64,000 nt of DNA from Escherichia phage OliverMaurmann_Bas86, in the sequence record PQ850622.1. One strand, given 5' to 3'. The position numbers were made by a program, and so were the translations under genes. The notes under the pieces were generated by a model. It saw only the letters and a list, made by a program, of their open reading frames with translations, searched no databases and was not told the DNA's origin. Position 1 is the first letter of the stretch. Each line of letters begins with the position of its first letter. Positions 34,249 through 48,746 of this stretch are shown here, piece by piece.

Positions 34249-34782
34249 TTATACGCCTTTAGAAGCAACAACCCCATCAGAGTTATTGTAACGACCCTTC
34301 ACTGCATAGGAATCATCACCAGCGTGAGAGTGTTCAAACATAACCATTTGACCAACACGCATCCCAGCACGAACTCGTAAGCTGTGATTGTGGGTAACGT
34401 TATGGAACTCAAAGGTTAGCTTACTGCTGTTAAACCCTGCATCAGCCCACCCAGCATGTAAGTGGTTCAAACCACAACGAGCCATTGAGGAGCGAAGTAC
34501 AAACAGACTTGAGATGTTATCTGGAAGGTTAAACTCTTCCATTGAGTGCGCTAAGAAGAATTGTCCCGGAGTGATGACAATACCATCTTCAGGGATTTTC
34601 ACCTCTTTCCACTTGAGGTTTTCTTTAGCATCAATGTCAACAATGCCGTCAGCCTGTTCTTCAACAAGGATAGTATCACCAATACGGATATCCACACTAG
34701 CAGCGTTAACATATTTATGCTCCGCATCTAAAAAGCCATTATCAATAACACTGTGTAATTCTTGAGAACCTAAAAGACTCAT
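34249..34782 (-). CDS. dCTP deaminase / dUTPase-family enzyme
   Basis: ASVDIRIGDTI, LRSSMARCGL, AGWADAGFN, GMRVGQMVMF. Confidence 0.6.
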   Translation of the reverse strand: MSLLGSQELHSVIDNGFLDAEHKYVNAASVDIRIGDTILVEEQADGIVDIDAKENLKWKEVKIPEDGIVITPGQFFLAHSMEEFNLPDNISSLFVLRSSMARCGLNHLHAGWADAGFNSSKLTFEFHNVTHNHSLRVRAGMRVGQMVMFEHSHAGDDSYAVKGRYNNSDGVVASKGV

Positions 34783-36227
34783 GAGTTTCTGTTTCCTTGT
34801 ACAGATGATGCCAAATTGTTAATCATGTTACGAGCTGTTTCACGAGTCAGCGTAACACCTGCTAAGTTACTATCAAGTTCACCAACTAATTCACGAGCTG
34901 TTGCTCGGAGTTCTGCACCAAGTGTAGTGTTAGAATGAGCCAGACCATTACGACGACCGACAGGTCGAGGAGTATTGTTAGCATCATTAGCTAAAGATGC
35001 AAAACCAATACGAGCAGCTTCACGAGCGGCTATAGCTGCTACCCGATCTTCCGTAGGGGTTGGCAAATCACCAACTTCTACACGTTCTATATCACTAGAA
35101 CGTAGACCCTGAACAACAGAGCTAACTGTTTCCCATGAACGACGGGAGCGCTGCAAATCACCCATAGATGGAGAAGAAGCAGGTCGAACAGTTACTCCAC
35201 CTGTATCATGAGTGACGTGCCATGTACGAGTACCCATTCCAGAAGAACGGGCACTACCAAAACTACCAGTGAAAGTATCACGAGGTGCCTCTGTAGCAGG
35301 TGCTGCGAATCTTGTCTGTTGCCAAGAGTCACGTCTGTCAGTTCCCGGAGTCCAAGGCTGCGTAATTGCTTCAGCACCTATAGTGGTTAATCCGCTAGAC
35401 CATTCTGTCTGTAGATTAACTTCCTCGTCCAGATAACTACGACCCCTTTCCTGAGGAATGTTTAATATAGTTTCCATCATCTTCAGGGTATAATGATGAC
35501 GCTGATTCTGATATAAATTTACACCAGCCATAGGTCCAACTAAATCACTAATCAGGTGAACTTCTGGCTCACCGAAAGCTCCCATTGCAAGGTGCATGTA
35601 TTCAGTAGAACTGCTATAAACTGCAACAGTTGCTTCAGGCCACTTCTTGTGAACATACTTCATTTCACGACTAGATACCACAGGAATGTCACGAGTGTAT
35701 GACATTGCAAACAAACCTTCGTTTGACACATACAGATTACCAAGAGTCATAAACCCTTGACAGATCATAGGAAAGCGACGGCTTAAAGTATCCATATCCA
35801 AAGGTAGATTAATCATCATCTGGATTTTAACTTGATCAATCTCAATTTCCAGAATCTCTTGGAAAGTGAAAAGCGCTTCAGCATAGGTTGTCCCGTTAAC
35901 AGGCTGAATTAGTCGAGATGTAACCTGAAGCCCCTTACTTTCTGTCCAAGATAAGAAGTTGTCAAGGAATAGTGCAGCATTACCTACGTTAGCAGGGCTG
36001 TTTTCTTGACGAGTGTTCCAACGAAGCCCTCCTTGAACTAGGAAGATATCAACATCATTCGGAGTTCTATTTTGAAAGAACGTATCACGGATAGCACCAC
36101 CTGCAATAACAGGATAGATGCCATCAGGGACTACGTTATCTCTGATCAAATTACGAATCAGGTCAAGCCCTACACTGAGGGCTTCTCCTTCTTGAAGGTT
36201 CAATTCAGATAGTGGAATCTTAATCAT
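34779..36227 (-). CDS. Pol-beta-superfamily nucleotidyltransferase (CCA-adding-enzyme-like head domain) with low-complexity C-terminal half
   Basis: PVIAGGAIRDTFF...NDVDIFL resembles the GGxVRD...DxD head motif; C-terminal ~200 aa Ser/Thr/Arg/Gly-rich. Confidence 0.4.
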   Translation of the reverse strand: MIKIPLSELNLQEGEALSVGLDLIRNLIRDNVVPDGIYPVIAGGAIRDTFFQNRTPNDVDIFLVQGGLRWNTRQENSPANVGNAALFLDNFLSWTESKGLQVTSRLIQPVNGTTYAEALFTFQEILEIEIDQVKIQMMINLPLDMDTLSRRFPMICQGFMTLGNLYVSNEGLFAMSYTRDIPVVSSREMKYVHKKWPEATVAVYSSSTEYMHLAMGAFGEPEVHLISDLVGPMAGVNLYQNQRHHYTLKMMETILNIPQERGRSYLDEEVNLQTEWSSGLTTIGAEAITQPWTPGTDRRDSWQQTRFAAPATEAPRDTFTGSFGSARSSGMGTRTWHVTHDTGGVTVRPASSPSMGDLQRSRRSWETVSSVVQGLRSSDIERVEVGDLPTPTEDRVAAIAAREAARIGFASLANDANNTPRPVGRRNGLAHSNTTLGAELRATARELVGELDSNLAGVTLTRETARNMINNLASSVQGNRNS

Positions 36228-38597: not shown

Positions 38598-38804
38598 TTA
38601 GTAAAACGATCGTATTTCTTCCCACACATCATCTTGCAAGTTTCTAAAACCCTGCAAGGTTTGCTTTGTTCTGTGAATAAATTCTTCAGAGTGCTTATCA
38701 GGTGTGAGCATACTGACAAACTTTTCATAGCGATTAATCTTCCACCGCATCTTCAAGTAGTCAGATTCCAGCTTTCTTAACTTCTGCCTGTCAGTTACTG
38801 TCAT
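38598..38804 (-). CDS. hypothetical protein
   Basis: Internal Met of ORF 38598..38900 chosen to limit overlap with 38791..39222. Confidence 0.25.
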   Translation of the reverse strand: MTVTDRQKLRKLESDYLKMRWKINRYEKFVSMLTPDKHSEEFIHRTKQTLQGFRNLQDDVWEEIRSFY

Positions 38805-39222
38805 CCTTCTCACCTGCCAGATATGCTGTCCAGTCACCAGATTCAACCAGAACATCTTGTTCTTCGTCGATGTGATAAATCCACGCTTCCACAGTTTCAC
38901 CGCTGTCCAATAATACTGGAATCAGCGTACGCTTATAAAAGGTGTATGGGTTATCATTGCCACGGTGACCTTCCAGACCGTCATATGGGCCTTCCAGACC
39001 AGCTTGGGTTGTTTCAAAGACTTCTACACGAACAGGCTTACCATTGCTGTCATGCTCCAAAGATACACTTGGGAAGTATGCTGTGCAATACTGATACAGG
39101 TTACAGTTGTTTACTGTCCACCCTTCACCAATAGACACACCACCTGCACGAGCATTGATAGCATGGTTGTGTTGACCTTTTCTCAAGCTTCCGTAAGTTG
39201 CAACTAGTACTTTATCAGACAT
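38791..39222 (-). CDS. gamma-glutamyl cyclotransferase-like (AIG2/GGCT fold) protein
   Basis: N-terminal VATYGSLRKGQHNH matches the YGSL signature of the GGCT/AIG2 family. Confidence 0.5.
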   Translation of the reverse strand: MSDKVLVATYGSLRKGQHNHAINARAGGVSIGEGWTVNNCNLYQYCTAYFPSVSLEHDSNGKPVRVEVFETTQAGLEGPYDGLEGHRGNDNPYTFYKRTLIPVLLDSGETVEAWIYHIDEEQDVLVESGDWTAYLAGEKDDSN

Positions 39223-39288
39223 TATATTACCTTTTAGTGTTTCAGTTAAATTCGAACTAGCCTCCTCTTTCGAAGAGGCTAAAGCAAA

Positions 39289-39474
39289 TTATTCTACTTC
39301 GAAGTGTTTGATCACACCAGTCAACACATCAGATTGGAATGTACCCACTAGCTCTGTACCTCGGAAGAAGTTAACACTTGTTCCAAGTGATTCAAAGCGA
39401 TCTGCTTGAATGTCCAGAGATTGAATATTTCCTTCTGCTGACATTGTACGAAACATGATTGTGTATTTATTCAC
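39289..39474 (-). CDS. hypothetical protein
   Basis: 61 aa ORF. Confidence 0.3.
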   Translation of the reverse strand: MNKYTIMFRTMSAEGNIQSLDIQADRFESLGTSVNFFRGTELVGTFQSDVLTGVIKHFEVE

Positions 39475-39713
39475 AGACTTGTTACTCCCTTATCTGCTTG
39501 TGCAATTGCGATGATACGCTCAGCACATTCCATTGAATATTTATCACCTCGTTTGAGGAAGGTGATGATTGCAGAGAACTGATTACCAATCATTCTCTTA
39601 TTTGTGATACCGAACTCTTCACAGAGTTGGTTGATAGCTTTACGAGAGCCTACAATCAGAGGCTCTTTTTCTTCGGTCATTCCACGGCTGATCAAATCTT
39701 CGATAGACAACAT
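39471..39713 (-). CDS. hypothetical protein
   Basis: 80 aa ORF. Confidence 0.3.
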   Translation of the reverse strand: MLSIEDLISRGMTEEKEPLIVGSRKAINQLCEEFGITNKRMIGNQFSAIITFLKRGDKYSMECAERIIAIAQADKGVTSL

Positions 39714-39739
39714 TACAAATTCCTTTTTGTTTAATTTAA

Positions 39740-40975
39740 TTACAGAGTTACTGCTACTTCGCTACCTTCAACATTGACAGACTCTAACTTGCGAGGGTTA
39801 TGAATCTGTACCGGATTAACCGGAACGTTCCAACCACTACGGTAGAAGTTACGACCATCACAGAACAAAATGACATTGGCAGACATTGCATTCGGTTGCA
39901 GGTTGTTATGGACATGACGGATATCTGCAATCCAATAACCACGAGACAAAGTGTAACCAGTAGGTGCATTACGAATAGTTTGAGTATTCATCTGACCTTC
40001 CAGTTGCATCTCTTCAGGAACTACATCTACCGAATCAACTGGCTGTGCTACCTGATCTTCCAGTGCAAAGTTTTCATCATTAGCGCTTTCGCTGTCATCT
40101 ACCAACTCACCGTCTCCATCTTCAATCGGAGTCTGGTAAACCACTTTATACTGAGGAGTATAGAGAGGGTTCTGAGCTTTAACAAACTCAAGGATGTTAT
40201 GGCGGTAGGTATCCAGAGTTGTACCAGTCAGGCCCGGTGCTGTATTAACTTCCAGTACCCACGCTTCTTGACCTTTGGTGATAATATCAACTGCACCGAA
40301 ATCCAGACCCATTGATTCAACAGCTTTCACCGCATTGATCAGAGAGGCGTCATTCGGAGCATCTGTGAAGGAGCTTGAGTAAACCCAGCCAGTGTGGTGA
40401 TTACGAATATCTTCACGATAGTTAGGGTCTTCGCGATAACCATTGCGACGAATCTTCTTCTGAACATAGGTGATTACACCTTTGAACACATGAACACGCC
40501 ACTCACGACGTGGGCCTTGAATGCCTTTAGTGTACAGTTCAGCTCGACCAAGACCATCACCCGGTTCTACAACAACAATACCCGAACCAGAGTGACCAGT
40601 CAGCTCATGGCGCTCATACACAATATTACCAGTGTTTGACCACTCCTGAGCAGTCTCTTGAACATCTGTGTATTCCACAGTTTTAACACCTGCTTGGTCC
40701 ATCACACTGAAAGCACGACGTTTGTTCGCTGCCATATATAAGGCTGCGGTACGGTTAAGGACGGTTGCAGAACCAAAGAATGATTCAGGATAGCGACGGT
40801 TCCCGTAGTTAACAACCACATCACCTTCACGAGAACGCCAGCGGCTATTCTCTGAAAGAAGACCCATCACGTTAGCATTGATGCGTTCATCACGGATAGT
40901 ATCACTGATAGCAGATACTAGAGCGTTAACAGAATCAGACGGGCCATACGGAAGAACACGGATACGAGTAGTCAT
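39740..40975 (-). CDS. ATP-grasp family ligase
   Basis: GHSGSGIVVV, EWRVHVF, and C-terminal AWVLEVNTAPGL typical of ATP-grasp folds. Confidence 0.55.
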   Translation of the reverse strand: MTTRIRVLPYGPSDSVNALVSAISDTIRDERINANVMGLLSENSRWRSREGDVVVNYGNRRYPESFFGSATVLNRTAALYMAANKRRAFSVMDQAGVKTVEYTDVQETAQEWSNTGNIVYERHELTGHSGSGIVVVEPGDGLGRAELYTKGIQGPRREWRVHVFKGVITYVQKKIRRNGYREDPNYREDIRNHHTGWVYSSSFTDAPNDASLINAVKAVESMGLDFGAVDIITKGQEAWVLEVNTAPGLTGTTLDTYRHNILEFVKAQNPLYTPQYKVVYQTPIEDGDGELVDDSESANDENFALEDQVAQPVDSVDVVPEEMQLEGQMNTQTIRNAPTGYTLSRGYWIADIRHVHNNLQPNAMSANVILFCDGRNFYRSGWNVPVNPVQIHNPRKLESVNVEGSEVAVTL

Positions 40976-40977
40976 TT

Positions 40978-41208
40978 TTAGATACCTTTTAGTTTAAGAA
41001 TTTCGTTACGACAGGATTGAATTTTAGCTTCGATTGCCCAATACTCAGCGAACATTTCGTCTTCTTGGGCATCGCTTGGAGAGTCAATTAAGTTAAAAGC
41101 AAACGGATACAGCTTTCGCTGCTCCGTTACCAGTTGTTGAAGTCGGAGTTGTTGATACTCCAGCATTGTCAGGTGAGGCTTAGCTCCCTTGCTTGACATG
41201 AGGCTCAA
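40978..41208 (-). CDS. hypothetical protein
   Basis: 76 aa ORF. Confidence 0.3.
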   Translation of the reverse strand: MSLMSSKGAKPHLTMLEYQQLRLQQLVTEQRKLYPFAFNLIDSPSDAQEDEMFAEYWAIEAKIQSCRNEILKLKGI

Positions 41209-41413
41209 CTTTAATCCCCTTCATTTTAACATAGTCAGCCAACACGTTATTGATAACGGTTGGAAAAGGGATTTCTACTGGAGAGTCAACCAGCTTCCCA
41301 ATACCTTCTTGCATCCACTTCTGGATTGCTCGGAGGTTATCACATCCTGTGCTTGTCATCGGAATACGGCGGGTAGTTACCACGTTATCCAACATCAGTT
41401 TACGAACTTCCAT
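41180..41413 (-). CDS. hypothetical protein
   Basis: 77 aa ORF. Confidence 0.3.
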   Translation of the reverse strand: MEVRKLMLDNVVTTRRIPMTSTGCDNLRAIQKWMQEGIGKLVDSPVEIPFPTVINNVLADYVKMKGIKVEPHVKQGS

Positions 41414-41424
41414 AACTATACCTC

Positions 41425-43458
41425 TTAGTGTTTACCTTTACAGTAATCTGAATTACAGATCACCCTGTTTTCTTTGTTCAGTGAGCAAGTTTCTGCATCA
41501 CGCCACGGAATTTGTTTATAACAGACTGCACAAAACCCAATTGAAGTCCAGAGGGCTTTTGTAAACTCAGCTGTTCGTTGTCCATCGTAACTGACAACTG
41601 TTTTTCGGAGAGAGGTTGACTTTTCTGGAAATGTCTCCGCTTTCTCAGCGGGTACCTCCTTTGGGGCATTCTTTGGACCATAAACAGAGATGGCATAAGT
41701 ATCACCACCACGTTTTTCCAAATACGAATTAGGAACATCTGCAAGTGTGATGTCCCCTGAACGTTTTGCTGAGCTGACCATTACAATCATACGGCTAAGC
41801 ATACGTTCATCAACACGAACAGCTACTTCAGGACGACGTGGGTTGGTTGTGTCTACTGCTTTAGTCCAAATATAACCTTCAGATAGAGTAACATTCTTTA
41901 CTTTATCTTTGATTTCTTTGGAGCAGATATAACAAACGTCTTCACCACGAAGTTTACTCATTTCGTTGTCAAACTCGAAATCAGTCTTGACTTCACCACA
42001 GATAGCACATACACCCAAAGGCACATCTTCTTCCTCTTCAGAGGTTTTAGATAACGCTTCGAAGCATTCTGGATGCCAGTATGCCTGATAAGCAAACACA
42101 GCCTTACGAGCATCTTTCCAGTCAATGTGCTTATCACAACCACCACAGTCACCATGAGAGTGAGATTCCCAGAACTTACGAGTGACTTCTACACCATTCT
42201 TAGTGATGAAGGAGTCCTCTGCATCAAAAGGGATATCATCATCAAAATCAGCAGTAGTGCTTTGAGGCTCCTTATCTGTAGCATCAACAAACAGCCCTGA
42301 AGTTAGTACGAGGCGAATCATACTGTCCACTTCGGAGATACAAGCGATTGTCCCGCGATATACTACCTTTGGGTTTTCAAGAGCCTTAAGATATTCATCT
42401 TTGGCTACGTTGTGAACATCCCCTTCGACATACTCTTGGGCTTTATCATCGTAGATGTAACCAACCATCTTACCACGATCTGTGTTGTTATAAGCATGGA
42501 ACTCGTGAGGAGTAATATCCACACGACCATCACGACGATAAGGAAGACCACGATCGGCAGCCAGTTTGTTCTGGTCTTCAATCGCTTTACGACGACGAAT
42601 GTCTCCGCTTGTCACGCCGGGCTTGTCGTCTTTGTTTCCGTAAATGTCGCTTGTGCTGCTGCTTGGTTTGTTTGTCTGTTGGTTCTGATAAAGAGAGGAG
42701 TTCGAGTAATAGCCGCCCCAGCGACTCGTTACCGTAAAAACCGGAAGCTTGTGCTCCACCTCTTGAACCAGAGTCATACGACTGTTAGACACATCAAAGA
42801 TATACTCAGTTCCCACTTTACACTCGAAGTGGTCATTGATACGGTTCTTGTGGGATTTAGAACGCTCTAAAATCCACATAAGCATAGCTTCTTCAGAAGC
42901 CCCAAACCAATCCAAACCACAGCGGGCTAGGTGGAAAGGACGCTCATCATTACGGATAATGTGAAGCGTGTTGTCTTTAGCATCATGCCAAATCAAAGTG
43001 AATGCACCATCCAGTTTTTGGATAGTCTCTGCTGCTCCAATGGTGTTAATTGAGTGGCAGATGTTTTCACTATCAACTTCGAAACGCTTACTGTCAGGAA
43101 GGAGATCTTGATCTAACAGGGTTCCATTATGAACCAGAGTAATATCCCCGTGAGTAAATGGGTGAGCATTTCGAGCATTGACAGCCCCACGAGTGGCATG
43201 TCGGCTGTGACCAACAATCCACGAAGGAGGAACTACGTAGTTCGTAAGCCCTTTGGTAATATTTGTATATTCTGTCTGGAGCATAAAAGCATAAGAAGGA
43301 AGAGCTTCTTTATAAGAGAAGACTTGCTTTTCACCTTTACGCTGACCAAACACACCAGTTGAGTGCTGTCCACGGAAAACACCAGCATACAGAAGTTGGT
43401 TGAAAATGTCCAAATCTGCTGAGGTCATGTTGCCGCCAGCTAATACGATACCACAAAT
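41425..43458 (-). CDS. class-II (Ntn) glutamine amidotransferase with Cys-rich C-terminal domain; probable ATT start
   Basis: In-frame extension upstream of the first ATG reads stop-K-I-CGIVLAGGN-M...FRGQHSTG, i.e. the Cys1 nucleophile and RGxxxxG motif of Ntn amidotransferases; AGGTGG lies 8 nt upstream of the ATT. Confidence 0.55.
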   Translation of the reverse strand: MCGIVLAGGNMTSADLDIFNQLLYAGVFRGQHSTGVFGQRKGEKQVFSYKEALPSYAFMLQTEYTNITKGLTNYVVPPSWIVGHSRHATRGAVNARNAHPFTHGDITLVHNGTLLDQDLLPDSKRFEVDSENICHSINTIGAAETIQKLDGAFTLIWHDAKDNTLHIIRNDERPFHLARCGLDWFGASEEAMLMWILERSKSHKNRINDHFECKVGTEYIFDVSNSRMTLVQEVEHKLPVFTVTSRWGGYYSNSSLYQNQQTNKPSSSTSDIYGNKDDKPGVTSGDIRRRKAIEDQNKLAADRGLPYRRDGRVDITPHEFHAYNNTDRGKMVGYIYDDKAQEYVEGDVHNVAKDEYLKALENPKVVYRGTIACISEVDSMIRLVLTSGLFVDATDKEPQSTTADFDDDIPFDAEDSFITKNGVEVTRKFWESHSHGDCGGCDKHIDWKDARKAVFAYQAYWHPECFEALSKTSEEEEDVPLGVCAICGEVKTDFEFDNEMSKLRGEDVCYICSKEIKDKVKNVTLSEGYIWTKAVDTTNPRRPEVAVRVDERMLSRMIVMVSSAKRSGDITLADVPNSYLEKRGGDTYAISVYGPKNAPKEVPAEKAETFPEKSTSLRKTVVSYDGQRTAEFTKALWTSIGFCAVCYKQIPWRDAETCSLNKENRVICNSDYCKGKH

Positions 43459-43535
43459 TTTCTAATCCACCTGAAGGGTAAACCCTTTCATCTAATTAAC
43501 CTTTAAATGCGCCCTGTATAAGAGCGCCCGTTGTG

Positions 43536-44636
43536 TTACAGCAGTCGTTCTAATTGCATTTCCAGAAGGTCTGGAATATAACCAGTGACGTTATCATCAC
43601 TGCTACCTGATTCACGCATCAATGCAAACATGTGACGAATTTCACGAACCGTTGCGATTCGAGTGCTTTCAATCTGAGGGGTGTAGTAGGTCATGATCTC
43701 TTCGTAGACACTGTTGGCATTACCGCGCACATATCCCAAGAAACCATAGAAGTCATTCATATCACGTAAGTTGATAAGGACTTCACCATCAGGGCCAGTC
43801 TGTTGCACACGAACACGACCAACCAAAGTCACAGATTGCTCACGACAGAAGAGAATATCACGAGCAAGACGATACCCTTCAGTGAGATCACTGTCTCTTG
43901 GAGTATAGTCTAGGGGTAGATGTTGAATCATAGGAGCGAAGCGCAGCTCATTCAACTTCTCAACATAAGCTTCATTGTCTAAATCTGCATATTCAACAGC
44001 CAGTTTCTTGAGAACCAAGAAGCGGTTGACCAGATTCAGAAGTTGGCTCTTTTTCCACTTCGGCTCTGAGATACGGAACTCAACAGAACCAAATTGAGAT
44101 AGAGGCAAAAGATTAAGGGAGGTATATTTATCCCAGCTATTAACAAGAGAGTGGAAGAAAGCTTCCCCGTCTCGGTTGAACGCTGACGAAGCATTCATAA
44201 CTTGTGCTTGAACGACAGCAAAAGCTGGACAGAAGTTGCTACGATAGCGATGGTATCCAGAACATTTGAACATCATCTTTTCATAGAACGTCCATCCAAG
44301 AATAACTTTCTTAAGGATGTTACTATCAGCGTCACGCATATCCATATGAACATGAGTGGAGCAGCGCCAAGTTCCCTCGGCTCCAGAATCCTGTACTGCT
44401 TCACTCAGATTGTTAATAGCACGAAGTAATTCTTCACCGTTGTAAGGTCGTGCACATACTAATTCACAACCATCACGAAGAGAGCCATCTTCAGTACAAA
44501 CCCACATATCAGCGTCAATGTCAGTTGTACCTTCGACTTCTAACTCAATACCAACACCACACTGAAAAGCAATACTTGGATGCGGTTCAGATAAGCGAGG
44601 GTTACGGTATCCAAAAACTTGTGCTACGGTTGTCAT
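43536..44636 (-). CDS. glutamine-synthetase-fold carboxylate-amine ligase (amidoligase)-like protein
   Basis: GVGIELEVEG and STHVHMD resemble the GxExE and HVH motifs of YbdK-type ligases. Confidence 0.45.
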   Translation of the reverse strand: MTTVAQVFGYRNPRLSEPHPSIAFQCGVGIELEVEGTTDIDADMWVCTEDGSLRDGCELVCARPYNGEELLRAINNLSEAVQDSGAEGTWRCSTHVHMDMRDADSNILKKVILGWTFYEKMMFKCSGYHRYRSNFCPAFAVVQAQVMNASSAFNRDGEAFFHSLVNSWDKYTSLNLLPLSQFGSVEFRISEPKWKKSQLLNLVNRFLVLKKLAVEYADLDNEAYVEKLNELRFAPMIQHLPLDYTPRDSDLTEGYRLARDILFCREQSVTLVGRVRVQQTGPDGEVLINLRDMNDFYGFLGYVRGNANSVYEEIMTYYTPQIESTRIATVREIRHMFALMRESGSSDDNVTGYIPDLLEMQLERLL

Positions 44637-45259
44637 AATGATTCCACCAACTCTACATTATATGATGACAGGTCTGAAGAAATATGCTTGAACTTCTCCA
44701 GAAGGTTTAAAGATTGACGACCATTGTCGCCATAACCAGCTTCAAGAAGCACGTTTCCAACGTAAGCCCCTTTGTAATAAACTTTTCCATCGACAGGATT
44801 GATATAGATGAAACGAGTAACCAACCCTTCAAACTCTGGATTAAACAGGTTGTACACCAATTCACCCGGAATCGAACGACCGAGAGAAGGAGGTGCACCG
44901 CGAAGTTTGTTTCCCATCAAACCTTTAGCTCTCTGACGAACAGGGTTGATATGGGTCCAGCTCACCATGTTATTGCCATGCTGAAGGTATCCTACATCTG
45001 GAGATTCCAGAATAAGGCTGTGATCAAACACTGGTATATTGCTAACAATCTGACGTTCAAACTGACCTTCAGAGTTTTTAGTCCAACGTTCTGCCTCAAA
45101 CACTAAAGACATTTCAGCGTCGTGTGAGTAGTCGTCGATATCAAAGTTACCTTGCTGACGAACATCAAGCACATATAGAGGGAGGTTTTTACCATCAGGT
45201 GATCGCTGAGCAATCCATGTTCCACAATAATAGTGTTGAAAATCTCTTAACAAGCTCAC
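44633..45259 (-). CDS. hypothetical protein in amidoligase module
   Basis: 208 aa ORF, overlaps neighbours. Confidence 0.35.
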   Translation of the reverse strand: MSLLRDFQHYYCGTWIAQRSPDGKNLPLYVLDVRQQGNFDIDDYSHDAEMSLVFEAERWTKNSEGQFERQIVSNIPVFDHSLILESPDVGYLQHGNNMVSWTHINPVRQRAKGLMGNKLRGAPPSLGRSIPGELVYNLFNPEFEGLVTRFIYINPVDGKVYYKGAYVGNVLLEAGYGDNGRQSLNLLEKFKHISSDLSSYNVELVESL

Positions 45260-45268
45260 AATATCACC

Positions 45269-46078
45269 TTATACAATCTGGAGTTTAGAGGAGAATTTAT
45301 CCGCTTCTTTAACATCGTTGCTGTTGATGATGTTATGAAGCTTTTCGATTGGAAGACGAGAGTGAAGTGACATCAACACTTCCATATCACAGCCTTGAAC
45401 AACCTTATCCACTTGCTCATAAACAAACTTGCGGGTTGACTTCTCACCAATCCAGAAGTTAGAAAGAGAACGATATTCAATACCGTAGTCCTTGTAACGA
45501 ATAGCAGAAGCCTTTCCGTACAACTCTTTACGACGAGTGTCTTTATCCATGATTACAGCTGGCAAGGACAGGAAGTAATCACACAGCACACCCAACATCA
45601 TTTGAGTTTGTCGATTGATCTCCAAAGTTCCAGAGACACCGAGGTGCACATGGCCCCCAGCAGTACGCAAACCTTTATCGGTTGCGACTGGTGAAGGGTT
45701 CTTTTGTCCAGTGAAGGCGTTGAAATCAGGAGTACAGCCAAATACAAAAGCTGACGGATGGAATGATTCAAGCTCTTCTGAAGTGAACACATGAGAGCTA
45801 ATCCCAAGCGCTGCTTCCAGACCACGATCATTCAGGATTTTGTTAGTCAGATCAATACCGCGCTGAATATTATCATCAAACGCTTCAAACCCTTTCTGTG
45901 GGTTAATATCAAACTCAGCCAGAACGTTGTCTTCTTGAAGACGAACATCAGGAGCCAGATCAATTTTGTTATCTTTAGAACATCCCAGCTTACCAGCCAC
46001 AGAGGTGATAATACCGGAAGCAGTACGAACAAACATTTCCGGATCCGACCCTATTAAGAATTTACGTTTAGTAGTCAT
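45269..46078 (-). CDS. second amidoligase-like protein (weaker match)
   Basis: FLIGSDPEMF and GGHVHLGV echo the same GxExE / HVH pattern. Confidence 0.35.
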   Translation of the reverse strand: MTTKRKFLIGSDPEMFVRTASGIITSVAGKLGCSKDNKIDLAPDVRLQEDNVLAEFDINPQKGFEAFDDNIQRGIDLTNKILNDRGLEAALGISSHVFTSEELESFHPSAFVFGCTPDFNAFTGQKNPSPVATDKGLRTAGGHVHLGVSGTLEINRQTQMMLGVLCDYFLSLPAVIMDKDTRRKELYGKASAIRYKDYGIEYRSLSNFWIGEKSTRKFVYEQVDKVVQGCDMEVLMSLHSRLPIEKLHNIINSNDVKEADKFSSKLQIV

Positions 46079-46545
46079 GCTTTAGTCCAACCTTTATGAG
46101 ATAGATAGTTTTTAAATCTGCCACTGTGCACAGCGCCCATGTGGCCTTGATGTAAGTCGTTGCTTCTACAGAAGTCTCTAAGATTGTATATTGTTACAAC
46201 CTCGCCATCTGGAGATCTAAACTTCCAAAATCTAGCATTCCCTTTCACAGCGTTTTCTTCACTGGTCAGAAGTTGGAAATTACTTGGGTGGTTATTAAGT
46301 TTATCGCCATCGATGTGATCAACAGTCATACCATCCGGAATAGGCCCAATAAACAATTCATACATAAGTCTATGTAATAAAAAGTTCCTTGTTATCTTTT
46401 CAGGAGCCTGAACTGTTGTAAACTTAAGATAACCATCTTTATCAGGAAACAGTTTCCTCTGTTTCCCTGTTCTTGCATGGAATATACTACCGTCTTCGAA
46501 CACCAAGAAGGTAGCAACTCCGACTACTAACTCCCTAAATTCCAT
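46075..46545 (-). CDS. HNH homing endonuclease
   Basis: VDHIDGDKLNNHPSNFQLLTSEEN. Confidence 0.55.
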   Translation of the reverse strand: MEFRELVVGVATFLVFEDGSIFHARTGKQRKLFPDKDGYLKFTTVQAPEKITRNFLLHRLMYELFIGPIPDGMTVDHIDGDKLNNHPSNFQLLTSEENAVKGNARFWKFRSPDGEVVTIYNLRDFCRSNDLHQGHMGAVHSGRFKNYLSHKGWTKA

Positions 46546-46569
46546 AGAGAGCCAATAAGGAAAGCACGC

Positions 46570-47520
46570 TTAGTCATTGTAATACTCCACGAGTTCATCA
46601 AAAAGGGAAACAACACGAGCACCAGCTTCTTCTGGTGTCATTGAGGAAGGTACTGCTTGCATCAGTCGTTCGATAAAACTGCGAACAGTGATTCTGTCCA
46701 TACGCTGATCTAATACTTCTCGCTTGTGACCTGCACAAGTTGACCAGAGACGCAACCACTCACTCATACTTTCATAATGGTCAGGGTCTTGGTCACGACG
46801 GCGTGCCATACGACGGAGAACTCCATCATTATGGTTTCGTACATAACCATCTCGGTTATCATCAACACCGAACACATTCTGAACCCATACGTTTTCAGAA
46901 AATTCATCAGTGGTGCAAATTAGTGGCAGAAATGCAATTGCACTCATGTCACCATCAAAATAAGTCGCTGCTGACTCATCGGTTGAGTCTACGTCATTAC
47001 TATAACACCAGCGACCAAAGAAGTTACGACTTAAACCAGCTAAGCGTAGAGCTAAACCGATTCGTTGTCGCTTAAGCAACTCTTCCTTGTCTTGTACGCC
47101 TTCCTGAAGGAACTCCATTCCATTAAAATCACCATCCAAATAGCTACGGATGGTCATTAGTCCAGTAAACACCTTGTCTGCTGGATGGTTTCGAAGGTTC
47201 ACGGCAATGGAGTTCACCGAAGTGACAGAGAACATATCTTTATAGCAAGACATTGAGTTAAAAATGTCTGTTGCTTCAACTAAAGCTCTTTCGATATCTT
47301 TAGCCGGCACGCCATAAAAATTGTGAGGCCAGAAGTTAATAACTTCAATTTCTGAAGTTCTGTCACGAAGGCTTGTTCGGTTACGACTTTCACCGTTAAT
47401 GTCTGTAACAGAATACATGTGCATACAGTTAAAAGTACCAAAGCAAGCTCTTCCTTTGAACACTGACTCACCGAAATCCTCTGCCGGTGTTACCGGAGCA
47501 ATCGATGCGGAGATTGACAT
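46570..47520 (-). CDS. hypothetical protein in amidoligase module
   Basis: 316 aa ORF. Confidence 0.35.
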   Translation of the reverse strand: MSISASIAPVTPAEDFGESVFKGRACFGTFNCMHMYSVTDINGESRNRTSLRDRTSEIEVINFWPHNFYGVPAKDIERALVEATDIFNSMSCYKDMFSVTSVNSIAVNLRNHPADKVFTGLMTIRSYLDGDFNGMEFLQEGVQDKEELLKRQRIGLALRLAGLSRNFFGRWCYSNDVDSTDESAATYFDGDMSAIAFLPLICTTDEFSENVWVQNVFGVDDNRDGYVRNHNDGVLRRMARRRDQDPDHYESMSEWLRLWSTCAGHKREVLDQRMDRITVRSFIERLMQAVPSSMTPEEAGARVVSLFDELVEYYND

Positions 47521-47528
47521 ATTCGCCT

Positions 47529-48746
47529 CTATTTATTAAAGAATAATTTTTCCATAATGGTTTCCCACTCTTCTGAGGGGAGGGTTGAGAACCCGTTTCC
47601 GTGAAGCCTGTTTGTCATGCAACTAATAATATTGTACATGTTGTAGCTTCGGGTGGATTCTGTTCCATTGTTCCAGTTATAACCGAAAACAATTTTATCG
47701 AAGGAGGTTTTATCCGTAGTTACTTCTCGGATGAACTCAACCAAGAGCGATTTCTCTGTGATGACCGCACGTTCACCATCTGGCAGATTACAATACTGAG
47801 GAAGAAGGATTGGTAAGAACATCGAATTGTTCACTCGACAATCGCGCACACCTTCACTGCGATAGATTAGGCTTGAGAAGTCTTCATCACGCAGGTGTCC
47901 TTCACCTTCAGTGTATTCACACTGTCGCCATTTGGTCTGGCGAGGTTCAACCATTGTACTACCAACGCCTACTGTATACAGAGACGCTTGGAAGATACAT
48001 GAATCGTAATCATTCCCTGTTAAAGCAACTTGCTCATTGCCGAACACATCCACTGAAGAGTTGATCAGTCGGCTGAATGCAAGAGAGGCTAAAGGGGACC
48101 AACCTTTCTTATACATCTTGTTCAACATTTCATACACAGCAGATTTTTCATCATCTGTATAGAATGTACGATTCAGCATCAGATAGAACAGAGCGCGATC
48201 AGCAGGACAACCATCAGTACAAACACCCATGAATCCTACTTCATGCCATACCAGACATGAGTCAGAATCCTTATCCATGAATGCTTCAAAGGCTTCCATT
48301 ACAGCCCTGTCAGTAACATCAGGACGGTTGTTTTCTTCTGCCCATGTTTCTACATGAGAAGGAGGACGAGGGTCTCCATTCTCCACCCCTTCGCGGAAAT
48401 ATTGAGTGGTAATAGGCTTTTTATCACCATAACGTTTTACACCATAAGCGGGAAGGTGTGTACCAGAGTTCCAGATGTACTTAATTTCGGACATAGGCAT
48501 CATGTTTTCAAGAACGTTCTCTTCAGCAGTGCCTTGACGAACCATCATATTTTCACTCCACACCTTAATGCGGATATTCCAGCCGTAGTTGCTGTCATAC
48601 GTGTTATAATAATCAGGATCACCATCTTCATCTTCATCATAATCACCACCCTGATAGTAACCTGCTTTCAGGAAACCATAACAAGGAGGCCAGATGGTTA
48701 CAACATCATCTGATTCTTTCCAGCTTTGAAGTGTTACAGGGAACAT
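47529..48746 (-). CDS. hypothetical protein with acidic N-terminal region
   Basis: 405 aa ORF. Confidence 0.35.
   Translation of the reverse strand: MFPVTLQSWKESDDVVTIWPPCYGFLKAGYYQGGDYDEDEDGDPDYYNTYDSNYGWNIRIKVWSENMMVRQGTAEENVLENMMPMSEIKYIWNSGTHLPAYGVKRYGDKKPITTQYFREGVENGDPRPPSHVETWAEENNRPDVTDRAVMEAFEAFMDKDSDSCLVWHEVGFMGVCTDGCPADRALFYLMLNRTFYTDDEKSAVYEMLNKMYKKGWSPLASLAFSRLINSSVDVFGNEQVALTGNDYDSCIFQASLYTVGVGSTMVEPRQTKWRQCEYTEGEGHLRDEDFSSLIYRSEGVRDCRVNNSMFLPILLPQYCNLPDGERAVITEKSLLVEFIREVTTDKTSFDKIVFGYNWNNGTESTRSYNMYNIISCMTNRLHGNGFSTLPSEEWETIMEKLFFNK

What the first reader, a model, noticed from the sequence alone, without database searches (positions are those of the whole stretch)
38598..48746. 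Amide-bond-forming enzyme module of unknown target
Within ~10 kb on the - strand sit a class-II glutamine amidotransferase (41425-43458), an ATP-grasp ligase (39740-40975), a gamma-glutamyl cyclotransferase-like protein (38791-39222), two proteins with glutamine-synthetase-fold amidoligase motifs (43536-44636, 45269-46078) and several unannotatable ORFs (44633-45259, 46570-47520, 47529-48746, small ORFs at 39289-39713 and 40978-41413). This combination is the toolkit for building or trimming glutamyl/peptidyl amide linkages. It is not a replication or nucleotide-salvage set, so the phage may synthesise a peptide-like metabolite or a covalent modification of protein, DNA or nucleotide. I recall comparative-genomic mention of amidoligase clusters in some phages but know of no experimental product.
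Basis: partly seen in the sequence, partly recalled or inferred. Interest (0 to 1): 0.85.

Follow-up and report, generated by a model that had tools for sequence, protein, structure and literature searches.

The report
Known phage amide-ligase cassette, product unknown
This stretch of an E. coli phage carries a widely conserved set of enzymes that join and then trim glutamate-type amide bonds. Comparative genomics described the set in 2009, but nobody has yet identified what it makes.

Summary
Every ORF exists at the stated coordinates on the - strand.

The window is a phiEco32-like (Gordonclarkvirinae) coliphage. The cluster is the ortholog of phiEco32 phi32_77-88, the cassette Iyer et al. 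(2009) described computationally. It is therefore not new.

I add four points:
- The gene order is conserved in LUZ24, tf, 7-11, A24, LAh_6, Vp_R1, PA11-like K4 and RIO-1. At least 527 IMG/VR contigs encode the COOH-NH2 ligase.
- The three 'unannotatable' ORFs are conserved parts of the cassette. Two of them are distant paralogs with no confident match to a solved fold.
- GGACT and a PuuD-like Peptidase_C26 replace each other across versions (p = 6e-7). This points to a gamma-glutamyl-amine intermediate that is later unmasked.
- Virion DNA of phage tf, which carries the full cassette, is cut by five restriction enzymes, and the window shows strong restriction-site avoidance. Both argue against a DNA modification.

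The most likely function is a cytoplasmic pathway that builds a gamma-glutamyl-linked small amide compound. I found no experimental product in the literature.

The parts
47529..48746 (-). unkA, 405 aa, ortholog of phiEco32 phi32_88. First gene of the cassette. Member of a phage-only family with conserved motifs C-[FY]-G, PAD[RK]..L...R, W.Q and G[HY].R.
46570..47520 (-). unkB, 316 aa, ortholog of phi32_87. Distant paralog of unkA.
46075..46545 (-). HNH homing endonuclease, an insertion. Not a functional part of the cassette.
   Evidence: An 'HNH endonuclease' is annotated under the match in SU7. The gene is absent between the orthologous genes of Bas87 and phiEco32.
45269..46078 (-). COOH-NH2 ligase type 2 (glutamine-synthetase/GCS-like carboxylate-amine ligase), ortholog of phi32_86.
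   Evidence: Pfam PF14395, E 2.7e-8, 33.8 bits against a cutoff of 25. PHROG 3815, E 2.6e-111. D50, E55, H143, H145, R183, E201 and R203 are invariant in 8 phages. No solved structure by sequence.
44633..45259 (-). unkC, 208 aa, ortholog of phi32_85 and LUZ24 gp17. It always lies between the two ligase genes and overlaps the start of the next gene.
   Evidence: PHROG 4877. jackhmmer links it to LUZ24 gp17, 7-11, A24, LAh_6 and Vp_R1. Present in at least 61 of 79 IMG/VR loci. No PDB hit with a profile. The 4-base overlap with 43536-44636 is visible.
43536..44636 (-). Amidoligase_2 (GS/GCS-like carboxylate-amine ligase), ortholog of phi32_84.
   Evidence: Pfam PF12224, E 3.1e-8, 34.2 bits against a cutoff of 22. 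E31, E33, E35, R54, E58, H95, H97, E186 and R188 are invariant. Present in 77 of 79 loci.
41425..43458 (-). Class-II (Ntn) glutamine amidotransferase domain (residues 1-225) followed by about 450 aa of Cys-rich region of unknown function. ATT start codon. Ortholog of phi32_83.
   Evidence: GATase_6, E 2.6e-14. GlmS and PurF N-terminal domains in NCBIfam and PDB. Cys1, R86, N111-G112 and D129 are conserved. ATT start shown. Four CxxC motifs and no recognisable synthase domain.
41180..41413 (-). DUF7195, 77 aa, ortholog of phi32_82 and LUZ24 gp20. Small conserved partner that follows the GATase gene.
   Evidence: Pfam PF23825, E 3.3e-19. Conserved in A24, 7-11, LAh_6, Vp_R1 and LUZ24. No conserved C-terminal Gly-Gly-Gln/Glu.
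40978..41208 (-). Small ORF, 76 aa (phi32_81 position). Found only in Gordonclarkvirinae relatives; role unknown.
   Evidence: ORF. No relatives outside close kin.
39740..40975 (-). RimK/MptN-like ATP-grasp ligase (residues 1-270) with a C-terminal extension of about 140 aa. Ortholog of phi32_80.
   Evidence: K85, R122, the G-rich loop, E158, D230, E242 and N244 are invariant. Present in 72 of 79 loci.
39289..39713 (-). Two small ORFs (61 aa and 80 aa), orthologs of phi32_78 and phi32_79. Probably not part of the amide pathway.
   Evidence: tblastn gives 76% identity to phi32_79. They have no counterpart in the cassettes of other phages.
38791..39222 (-). GGACT/AIG2-like gamma-glutamyl(amine) cyclotransferase, ortholog of phi32_77 (YtfP-like).
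   Evidence: Pfam PF06094, E 8.9e-16. PHROG 2520, E 4e-41. Y10-G11-x-L13, E84, Y96 and R98 are invariant. Its distribution is complementary to Peptidase_C26.
38598..38804 (-). Small ORF, 68 aa (phi32_76 position), between GGACT and the primase/helicase gene.
   Evidence: Annotated in Bas87 and 4E8. No family hit.

Best explanation
This is the phiEco32-type phage amidoligase cassette. It is a soluble, cytoplasmic, multi-enzyme pathway that lies immediately upstream of the replication genes on the same strand, and is probably co-transcribed with them.

Proposed mechanism (inferred, not shown):
- The two glutamine-synthetase-like ligases (COOH-NH2_lig and Amidoligase_2) activate carboxylates as acyl-phosphates. 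Most likely this is the gamma-carboxylate of glutamate. They join it to an amine.
- The RimK-like ATP-grasp adds a further alpha-linked amino acid, probably glutamate.
- The class-II GATase either supplies ammonia to amidate a carboxylate or hydrolyses a gamma-glutamyl amide.
- The GGACT enzyme finally removes a gamma-glutamyl group as 5-oxoproline and releases a free amine.

The gamma-glutamyl group would thus act as a temporary handle on an amine. This resembles the Puu putrescine pathway, butirosin side-chain synthesis and ergothioneine synthesis.

The substrate is most likely a small molecule. Candidates are an amino acid or peptide, a polyamine, or a cell-wall precursor. DNA is unlikely. 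The three unnamed proteins (unkA, unkB, unkC) and DUF7195 are conserved accessory subunits.

Shown: family membership, intact active sites, conserved gene order, and interchangeability of GGACT and C26.

Inferred: the order of steps, the gamma-glutamyl handle, and the class of substrate.
For: - Family assignments.
- Catalytic residues of all five enzymes are invariant across 7-8 divergent phages.
- The same gene order sits next to primase/helicase in phiEco32, LUZ24, A24, K4 and RIO-1. It occurs elsewhere in 7-11, LAh_6 and Vp_R1.
- Among 79 IMG/VR loci with the COOH-NH2 ligase, 77 have Amidoligase_2, 75 have the GATase and 72 have the ATP-grasp.
- Many versions carry a Peptidase_C26 (PuuD-like gamma-glutamyl hydrolase, Pfam E 1e-17 to 1e-23).
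- In 53 loci with adequate flanks, 19 have C26 only, 26 have GGACT only, 4 have both and 4 have neither. Fisher p = 6e-7. Two different enzymes that both cleave gamma-glutamyl amides therefore substitute for each other.
- All cassette proteins are acidic and lack membrane segments.
- Phage tf carries the full cassette (L065). Its virion DNA is cut by RsaI, HpaI, EcoRV, SmaI and HaeIII (PMC3517423).
- Both independently evolved lines of P. aeruginosa phage FJK.R9 acquired missense changes in the amidoligase and the GATase (PMC11450229). The cassette therefore affects fitness on the host.
Against: - No product, substrate or phenotype has been measured (literature).
- The order of reactions and the identity of the activated carboxylate rest on analogy with characterised relatives of each family.
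- The GATase has no recognisable synthase domain, so its role as ammonia donor or as hydrolase is open.
- Writer-plus-eraser gene sets also occur in protein-tagging systems such as PafA and Dop.
- Gordonclarkvirinae resist restriction systems for reasons nobody has explained (PMC11990801). This keeps a DNA or nucleotide role from being excluded in this lineage.
Confidence: 0.5

Rival explanations
1. Protein tagging. The ligases attach glutamate or a short peptide to a lysine or a C-terminus of a host or phage protein. Parallels are RimK on ribosomal protein S6, PafA/Pup, and tubulin or SidJ glutamylation. GGACT, C26 and the GATase would act as erasers.
For: - The ATP-grasp is closest to RimK and MptN alpha-L-glutamate ligases.
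- The classical GGACT substrate is gamma-glutamyl-epsilon-lysine (established knowledge of the family).
- The GATase carries Cys-rich, probably protein-binding, modules instead of a synthase domain.
- The invariant Cys of the unkA/unkB family could mark a carrier or a target.
Against: - No ubiquitin-like or Pup-like tag is present. DUF7195 has no conserved C-terminal Gly-Gly-Gln/Glu.
- Three to five ligases is more than known tagging systems need.
- The papers read here do not mention any modification of virion proteins. Those papers were not searched for this point.
Confidence: 0.22
2. Cell-wall precursor modification for superinfection exclusion. This is the published prediction. The cassette would alter peptidoglycan stem-peptide linkages, by amidation or by an added amino acid, so that later phages cannot infect or lyse the cell.
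For: - Later papers attribute this reading to Iyer et al. 2009 and Hardies et al. 2013.
- ATP-grasp enzymes (Ddl) and class-II GATases (mDAP amidation) do act on stem peptides (established knowledge).
- All cassette proteins are cytoplasmic, where UDP-MurNAc-peptides are made.
Against: - There is no Mur-ligase, lipid-II-binding or membrane-associated component.
- The reading has never been tested.
- It does not explain why a gamma-glutamyl-removing step is obligatory and interchangeable.
- Strictly lytic podoviruses with short latent periods gain little from remodelling the wall.
Confidence: 0.13
3. DNA or nucleotide hypermodification. The cassette would decorate a base or a dNTP with an amino-acid-like group. 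This would explain the unexplained restriction resistance of Gordonclarkvirinae.
For: [quoted passage not shown]
- The window keeps normal numbers of EcoRV sites (18) and EcoKI sites (8).
- The cassette sits next to the replication genes.
Against: - tf virion DNA is cut by five enzymes whose sites together contain all four bases, and tf has the whole cassette.
- The window shows extreme site avoidance: CCWGG 0 observed against about 94 expected, GATC 139 against 283, PstI 0 against 18. This is the signature of DNA that restriction enzymes can cut.
- No kinase, hydroxymethylase, glycosylase-like or DNA-binding domain was found, and all proteins are acidic.
Confidence: 0.07
4. Nutrient rerouting. 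The enzymes break down or rebuild host gamma-glutamyl pools (glutamine, glutathione, gamma-glutamyl-polyamines) to feed nitrogen and glutamate into nucleotide synthesis during replication.
For: - Every family has a counterpart in the gamma-glutamyl cycle. GCS-like and ATP-grasp enzymes match GshA and GshB. GGCT matches ChaC. The class-II GATase matches Dug3. C26 matches PuuD (established knowledge).
- A glutaredoxin lies next to the cassette in RIO-1.
Against: - There is no significant sequence similarity to GshA or GshB.
- The hosts already have these pathways.
- Four conserved proteins of unknown function would be unnecessary for simple turnover.
Confidence: 0.08

Closest known systems
phiEco32 amidoligase cassette, phi32_77 to phi32_88 (Iyer, Abhiman, Burroughs and Aravind 2009, Mol Biosyst 5:1636). 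Also called the 'peptidoglycan modification cassette' of RIO-1-like phages (Hardies et al. 2013).
   Same: It is the same genes in the same order. The DNA is 97-99% identical to phages SU7 and Bas87. The Amidoligase_2 protein is about 70% identical to that of the phiEco32 clade. Pfam PF14395 is named after the phiEco32 ortholog.
   Different: Two differences from the phiEco32 locus: an HNH endonuclease inserted between unkB and the COOH-NH2 ligase, and ATT instead of ATG as the GATase start in this sub-clade. As far as I can tell from papers that cite it, the published description names five enzymes. The original paper was not available to me. Here unkA, unkB, unkC and DUF7195 are shown to be conserved parts as well.
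Puu putrescine pathway of E. coli (PuuA gamma-glutamylputrescine synthetase and PuuD gamma-glutamyl-GABA hydrolase).
   Same: A GS-like ligase makes a gamma-glutamyl-amine, and a Peptidase_C26 enzyme removes the glutamyl group later. C26 is present in many versions of the cassette.
   Different: There is no sequence-level orthology to PuuA. There are no oxidase or dehydrogenase steps. The window phage uses GGACT instead of C26. Extra ligases and a class-II GATase are present.
Butirosin side-chain pathway (BtrJ ATP-grasp adds a protective gamma-glutamyl group; BtrG, a GGCT-fold enzyme, removes it).
   Same: An ATP-grasp ligase is combined with a cyclotransferase that unmasks an amine by releasing 5-oxoproline.
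   Different: There is no acyl carrier protein and no aminoglycoside genes. The resemblance comes from my own knowledge of that pathway and was not tested here.
Pup-proteasome tagging (PafA ligase, Dop deamidase, Pup).
   Same: GS-fold ligase chemistry on a glutamate gamma-carboxylate, with a paired removing enzyme. Dop and PafA are among the weak structural hits of unkB.

Membership tests
phiEco32-type phage amidoligase cassette | COOH-NH2 ligase type 2 (PF14395) and Amidoligase_2 (PF12224) encoded together | tested here: met
   Both are above the Pfam cutoffs. They co-occur in 77 of 79 viral loci.
phiEco32-type phage amidoligase cassette | Linked class-II GATase, ATP-grasp ligase and AIG2/GGACT cyclotransferase | tested here: met
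   The gene order is identical to phi32_77-88.
Class-II (Ntn) glutamine amidotransferase | N-terminal catalytic Cys, Asn-Gly oxyanion hole, and Arg and Asp that hold the glutamine backbone | tested here: met
   Cys follows the ATT start. R86, N111-G112 and D129 are invariant and align to GlmS.
Class-II (Ntn) glutamine amidotransferase | Fused or partnered synthase domain that accepts the ammonia | tested here: inconclusive
   The C-terminal 450 aa has no family hit, only CxxC motifs.
ATP-grasp, RimK/MptN alpha-L-glutamate ligase group | ATP-grasp Mg/ATP-binding residues and sequence membership | tested here: met
   For the superfamily the test is met. D230, E242 and N244 align to the RimK metal ligands. 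For RimK as an equivalog it is not met, because scores are far below the curated cutoffs.
Glutamine-synthetase/GCS-like carboxylate-amine ligases | Acidic strand motif, His-x-His and Glu-x-Arg metal/ATP motifs | tested here: met
   Amidoligase_2 has E31/E33/E35, H95/H97 and E186/R188. COOH-NH2_lig has D12/E14, H143/H145 and E201/R203. No solved structure exists to confirm the fold.
Thymidine/cytosine DNA hypermodification pathways | Pyrimidine hydroxymethylase, 5-HMUDK-type kinase, and aGPT-Pplase or glycosyltransferase acting on DNA | tested here: not met
   None of the ten cassette proteins hits such families. DNA of cassette-bearing phage tf is restrictable.
Pup-like protein tagging | Small tag protein with a conserved C-terminal Gly-Gly-Gln/Glu | tested here: not met
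   The only conserved small protein, DUF7195, has a variable C-terminus.
Known anti-phage defence or counter-defence families | Match to PADLOC models | tested here: not met
   No hits for any of the ten proteins.

The most novel reading that the evidence does not exclude
The unkA/unkB family has no confident match to a solved fold and carries an invariant Cys. It may be the substrate-defining core of the cassette. The pathway may make a previously unseen gamma-glutamyl-derived compound or conjugate that underlies the unexplained broad restriction resistance of Gordonclarkvirinae. It could do this as an inhibitor of host nucleases or as a low-level or site-specific nucleic-acid adduct that bulk digests miss.
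Probability: 0.08. Interest if true: 0.85.

Novelty: already known. Interest (0 to 1): 0.42.

Why it matters
The cassette has six to nine genes and is widespread. At least 527 viral contigs encode its hallmark COOH-NH2 ligase, in phages of Escherichia, Salmonella, Pseudomonas, Vibrio, Aeromonas, Proteus, Cronobacter and Pseudoalteromonas. It has been predicted to make an unknown amide-linked product for more than 15 years.

Close relatives of this phage (Bas87-89) now grow on engineered E. coli K-12. Deletion mutants plus metabolomics could therefore settle the question. The answer would define a new phage-made metabolite or modification and assign functions to four orphan protein families.

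The finding itself adds no new kind of system.

Tried and rejected
- Profile-profile comparison (hhalign) of unkA, unkB and unkC with each other and with the two ligase families found nothing. It also failed to link the two ligase families to each other, so the test is uninformative. My first run used a wrong global-alignment flag.
- Sequence and profile searches of unkC and both ligases against PDB gave no hits.
- The AFDB libraries were not available.
- I tested whether DUF7195 could be a Pup-like tag. Its C-terminus is not conserved, so I rejected this.
- I tested whether long variants of the ligases and the GATase carry informative fused domains. None was found.
- The IMG/VR scan seeded with unkC returned only 8 close relatives. 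The COOH-NH2 ligase seed worked.
- Three key papers were not held: Iyer 2009, Savalia 2008 and Hardies 2013. Their content is cited only through later papers.
- One literature search was too broad and was wasted.
- A reported archaeal-virus occurrence rests on a metagenomic host prediction, so I did not use it against the cell-wall hypothesis.

Full report
**What the window is.** The 10-kb region is 97-99% identical to Escherichia phages SU7 and AnnaHegner_Bas87. It matches 98 phage records, nearly all Escherichia or Shigella podoviruses of the phiEco32 group (Gordonclarkvirinae). In Bas87 the region lies directly upstream of the primase/helicase, the DNA polymerase exonuclease subunit, a 'nucleotidyltransferase' and a dCTP deaminase.

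**Check of the observation.**
- Pfam assigns GGACT (38791-39222, E 8.9e-16), GATase_6 (41425-43458, E 2.6e-14), Amidoligase_2 (43536-44636, E 3.1e-8) and COOH-NH2_lig, 'Phage phiEco32-like COOH.NH2 ligase-type 2' (45269-46078, E 2.7e-8). All four are above the curated cutoffs. DUF7195 is assigned to the small ORF 41180-41413.
- The ATP-grasp (39740-40975) is just under the Pfam RimK cutoff. It is supported by PHROG 2599 (E 6e-169), NCBIfam MptN and RimK models, RimK structures and invariant Mg/ATP residues.
- The three larger unnamed ORFs have no Pfam, NCBIfam or PADLOC hit.
The sequence reads TAG-AAA-ATT-TGT-GGT-ATC with a GGTGGA ribosome-binding site upstream. Orthologs in seven other phages start ATG-TGT-GG, giving Met-Cys-Gly. 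Only this start provides the N-terminal catalytic cysteine.
It is an insertion absent from Bas87 and phiEco32.

**It is a known cassette.**
- The cluster is the ortholog of phiEco32 phi32_77 to phi32_88. The mapping is phi32_88 = unkA, 87 = unkB, 86 = COOH-NH2 ligase, 85 = unkC, 84 = Amidoligase_2, 83 = GATase, 82 = DUF7195, 80 = ATP-grasp and 77 = YtfP/GGACT.
- Later papers cite Iyer et al. 2009 for this cassette and its prediction: cell-wall or peptide modification to block superinfection, or a secondary metabolite.
- They cite Hardies et al. 2013 for its conservation in RIO-1, phiEco32, 7-11, PA11, tf, LUZ24, PaP3 and CW02.
- I found no paper reporting a product, substrate or knockout.

**Anatomy across phages.**
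- The order is [unkA-like][unkB-like], COOH-NH2 ligase, unkC, Amidoligase_2, GATase, DUF7195, ATP-grasp, then GGACT.
- This order recurs in LUZ24, 7-11, Cronobacter A24, Aeromonas LAh_6 and Vibrio Vp_R1. It recurs with rearrangement in PA11-like K4 and RIO-1. It usually lies just upstream of primase/helicase.
- A scan of IMG/VR with a COOH-NH2 ligase alignment found at least 527 viral contigs. Of the 79 loci fetched, 77 have Amidoligase_2, 75 the GATase, 72 the ATP-grasp and at least 61 unkC.
- Active-site residues of all five recognisable enzymes are invariant across 7-8 divergent phages. These are working enzymes.

**The unnamed proteins.**
- unkC is homologous to LUZ24 gp17 and its counterparts. 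Its gene always sits between the two ligase genes and overlaps the start of the amidoligase gene, which suggests a subunit relationship.
- unkB (pLDDT 80) structurally matches only uncharacterised proteins of other cassette-bearing phages, including RIO-1 gp7.
- unkA and unkB are distant paralogs. The tandem pairs in 7-11 and LAh_6 are paralogs by shuffle tests (z 6-7.5).
- The unkA profile retrieves only 24 proteins from 1.84 billion representatives. The weakest of these (P0102, E 3.9e-4) is a 7-11-type protein that carries unkB's PADK..GLM..R motif.
- An iterative search joins 64 sequences, including both unkA and unkB.
- Shared motifs are an N-terminal strand, C-[FY]-G, PAD[RK]..L...R, W.Q and G[HY].R.
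- DUF7195 is conserved (LUZ24 gp20 and others) but lacks a conserved C-terminus, so it is not a Pup-like tag.

**A mechanistic clue.**
- Many marine and PA11-like versions carry a Peptidase_C26 gene (PuuD-like gamma-glutamyl hydrolase) just upstream of the ligases.
- In 53 loci with enough flanking sequence, 19 have C26 only, 26 have GGACT only, 4 have both and 4 have neither (Fisher p = 6e-7).
- Two unrelated enzymes whose common activity is removal of a gamma-glutamyl group from an amine are therefore interchangeable. The pathway very probably passes through a gamma-glutamyl-amine intermediate that is unmasked at the end.
- The same logic is known from the Puu pathway, butirosin side-chain synthesis and ergothioneine synthesis. 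That comparison rests on established knowledge of those pathways and was not tested here.

**Which target?**
- All cassette proteins are acidic and soluble, with no signal or membrane segments.
- Phage tf carries the complete cassette (L065). Its virion DNA was cut with RsaI, HpaI, EcoRV, SmaI and HaeIII for cloning and mapping (PMC3517423).
- The window shows extreme restriction-site avoidance: CCWGG 0 against about 94 expected, GATC 139 against 283, PstI 0 against 18. This is typical of DNA that restriction enzymes can cut.
- These points argue against a bulk DNA modification.
- The BASEL study nevertheless reports that Gordonclarkvirinae are remarkably resistant to restriction systems without any known modification or inhibitor (PMC11990801). 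The window keeps normal numbers of EcoRV and EcoKI sites. A link to restriction evasion is therefore not excluded.
- In directed evolution of P. aeruginosa phage FJK.R9, both evolved lines acquired missense changes in the amidoligase and the GATase (PMC11450229). The cassette therefore matters for fitness on the host.

**Verdict.** The cassette has been described computationally since 2009, and this copy is nearly identical to sequenced phages. My best explanation is a cytoplasmic pathway that assembles and then unmasks a gamma-glutamyl-linked small amide compound (confidence about 0.5). The rivals are protein tagging (0.22), cell-wall precursor modification (0.13), pool rerouting (0.08) and DNA modification (0.07). 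The open question is old and now experimentally tractable, but the finding itself is not novel.

Noticed in passing
window 43456-43458 (- strand), with upstream 43459-43480: The GATase gene starts with ATT instead of ATG. There is an in-frame TAG two codons upstream and a GGTGGA Shine-Dalgarno. The same is true in Bas87 and 4E8. Seven more distant phages use ATG-TGT-GG. This may be translational down-tuning of the enzyme in this sub-clade.
   Followed up: partly
whole window 1-64000: Extreme site avoidance. CCWGG: 0 observed against about 94 expected. GATC: 139 against 283. CTGCAG: 0 against 18. GGATCC: 1 against 11. GGTACC: 1 against 12. EcoRV and EcoKI sites occur at expected numbers. This is relevant to the unexplained restriction resistance reported for this subfamily.
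   Followed up: partly
window 46075-46545 (- strand): An HNH homing endonuclease gene is inserted between unkB and the COOH-NH2 ligase. It is absent from Bas87 and phiEco32. An HNH gene also interrupts the cassette at a different place in UFV-P2.
   Followed up: partly
window 39471-39713 (- strand): This 80-aa ORF is the ortholog (76% identity) of phiEco32 phi32_79. From memory, phi32_79 is the gp79 inhibitor of host RNA polymerase. It sits inside the cluster but has no counterpart in the cassettes of other phages.
   Followed up: partly
IMG/VR loci L031, L040, L058, L066, L076 and about 20 others; K4 locus L008 4860-5480: A Peptidase_C26 (PuuD-like gamma-glutamyl hydrolase) gene lies just upstream of the ligases in many versions. 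It is largely mutually exclusive with GGACT (Fisher p = 6e-7).
   Followed up: yes
window 49285-49525 and 49312-49329 (- strand): A 240-bp intergenic gap with a terminator-like hairpin (GGCTCTC..GAGAGTC followed by a T run) lies about 600 bases upstream of unkA. It matches a terminator annotated in phage 4E8. This is probably the upstream boundary of the transcription unit.
   Followed up: no
window 34779-36227 (- strand); phiEco32 locus L097 12977-14290 and 16947-17603: The gene annotated 'nucleotidyltransferase' in Bas87 lies next to the separate exonuclease subunit. It is probably the polymerase half of a split DNA polymerase I, as stated for phiEco32 and LUZ24-like phages in PMC3517423. 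phiEco32 also encodes ThyX. Together these weaken the BASEL suggestion that the virion DNA contains deoxyuracil.
   Followed up: no
7-11 locus L004 14-1684; A24 locus L005 1-604; LAh_6 locus L006 14130-17268: The larger relatives (7-11, A24, LAh_6) carry nicotinamide/nicotinate phosphoribosyltransferase genes near the cassette. 7-11 and LAh_6 also carry a ribose-phosphate pyrophosphokinase gene. These form an NAD-salvage set that is absent from the window phage's cluster.
   Followed up: no
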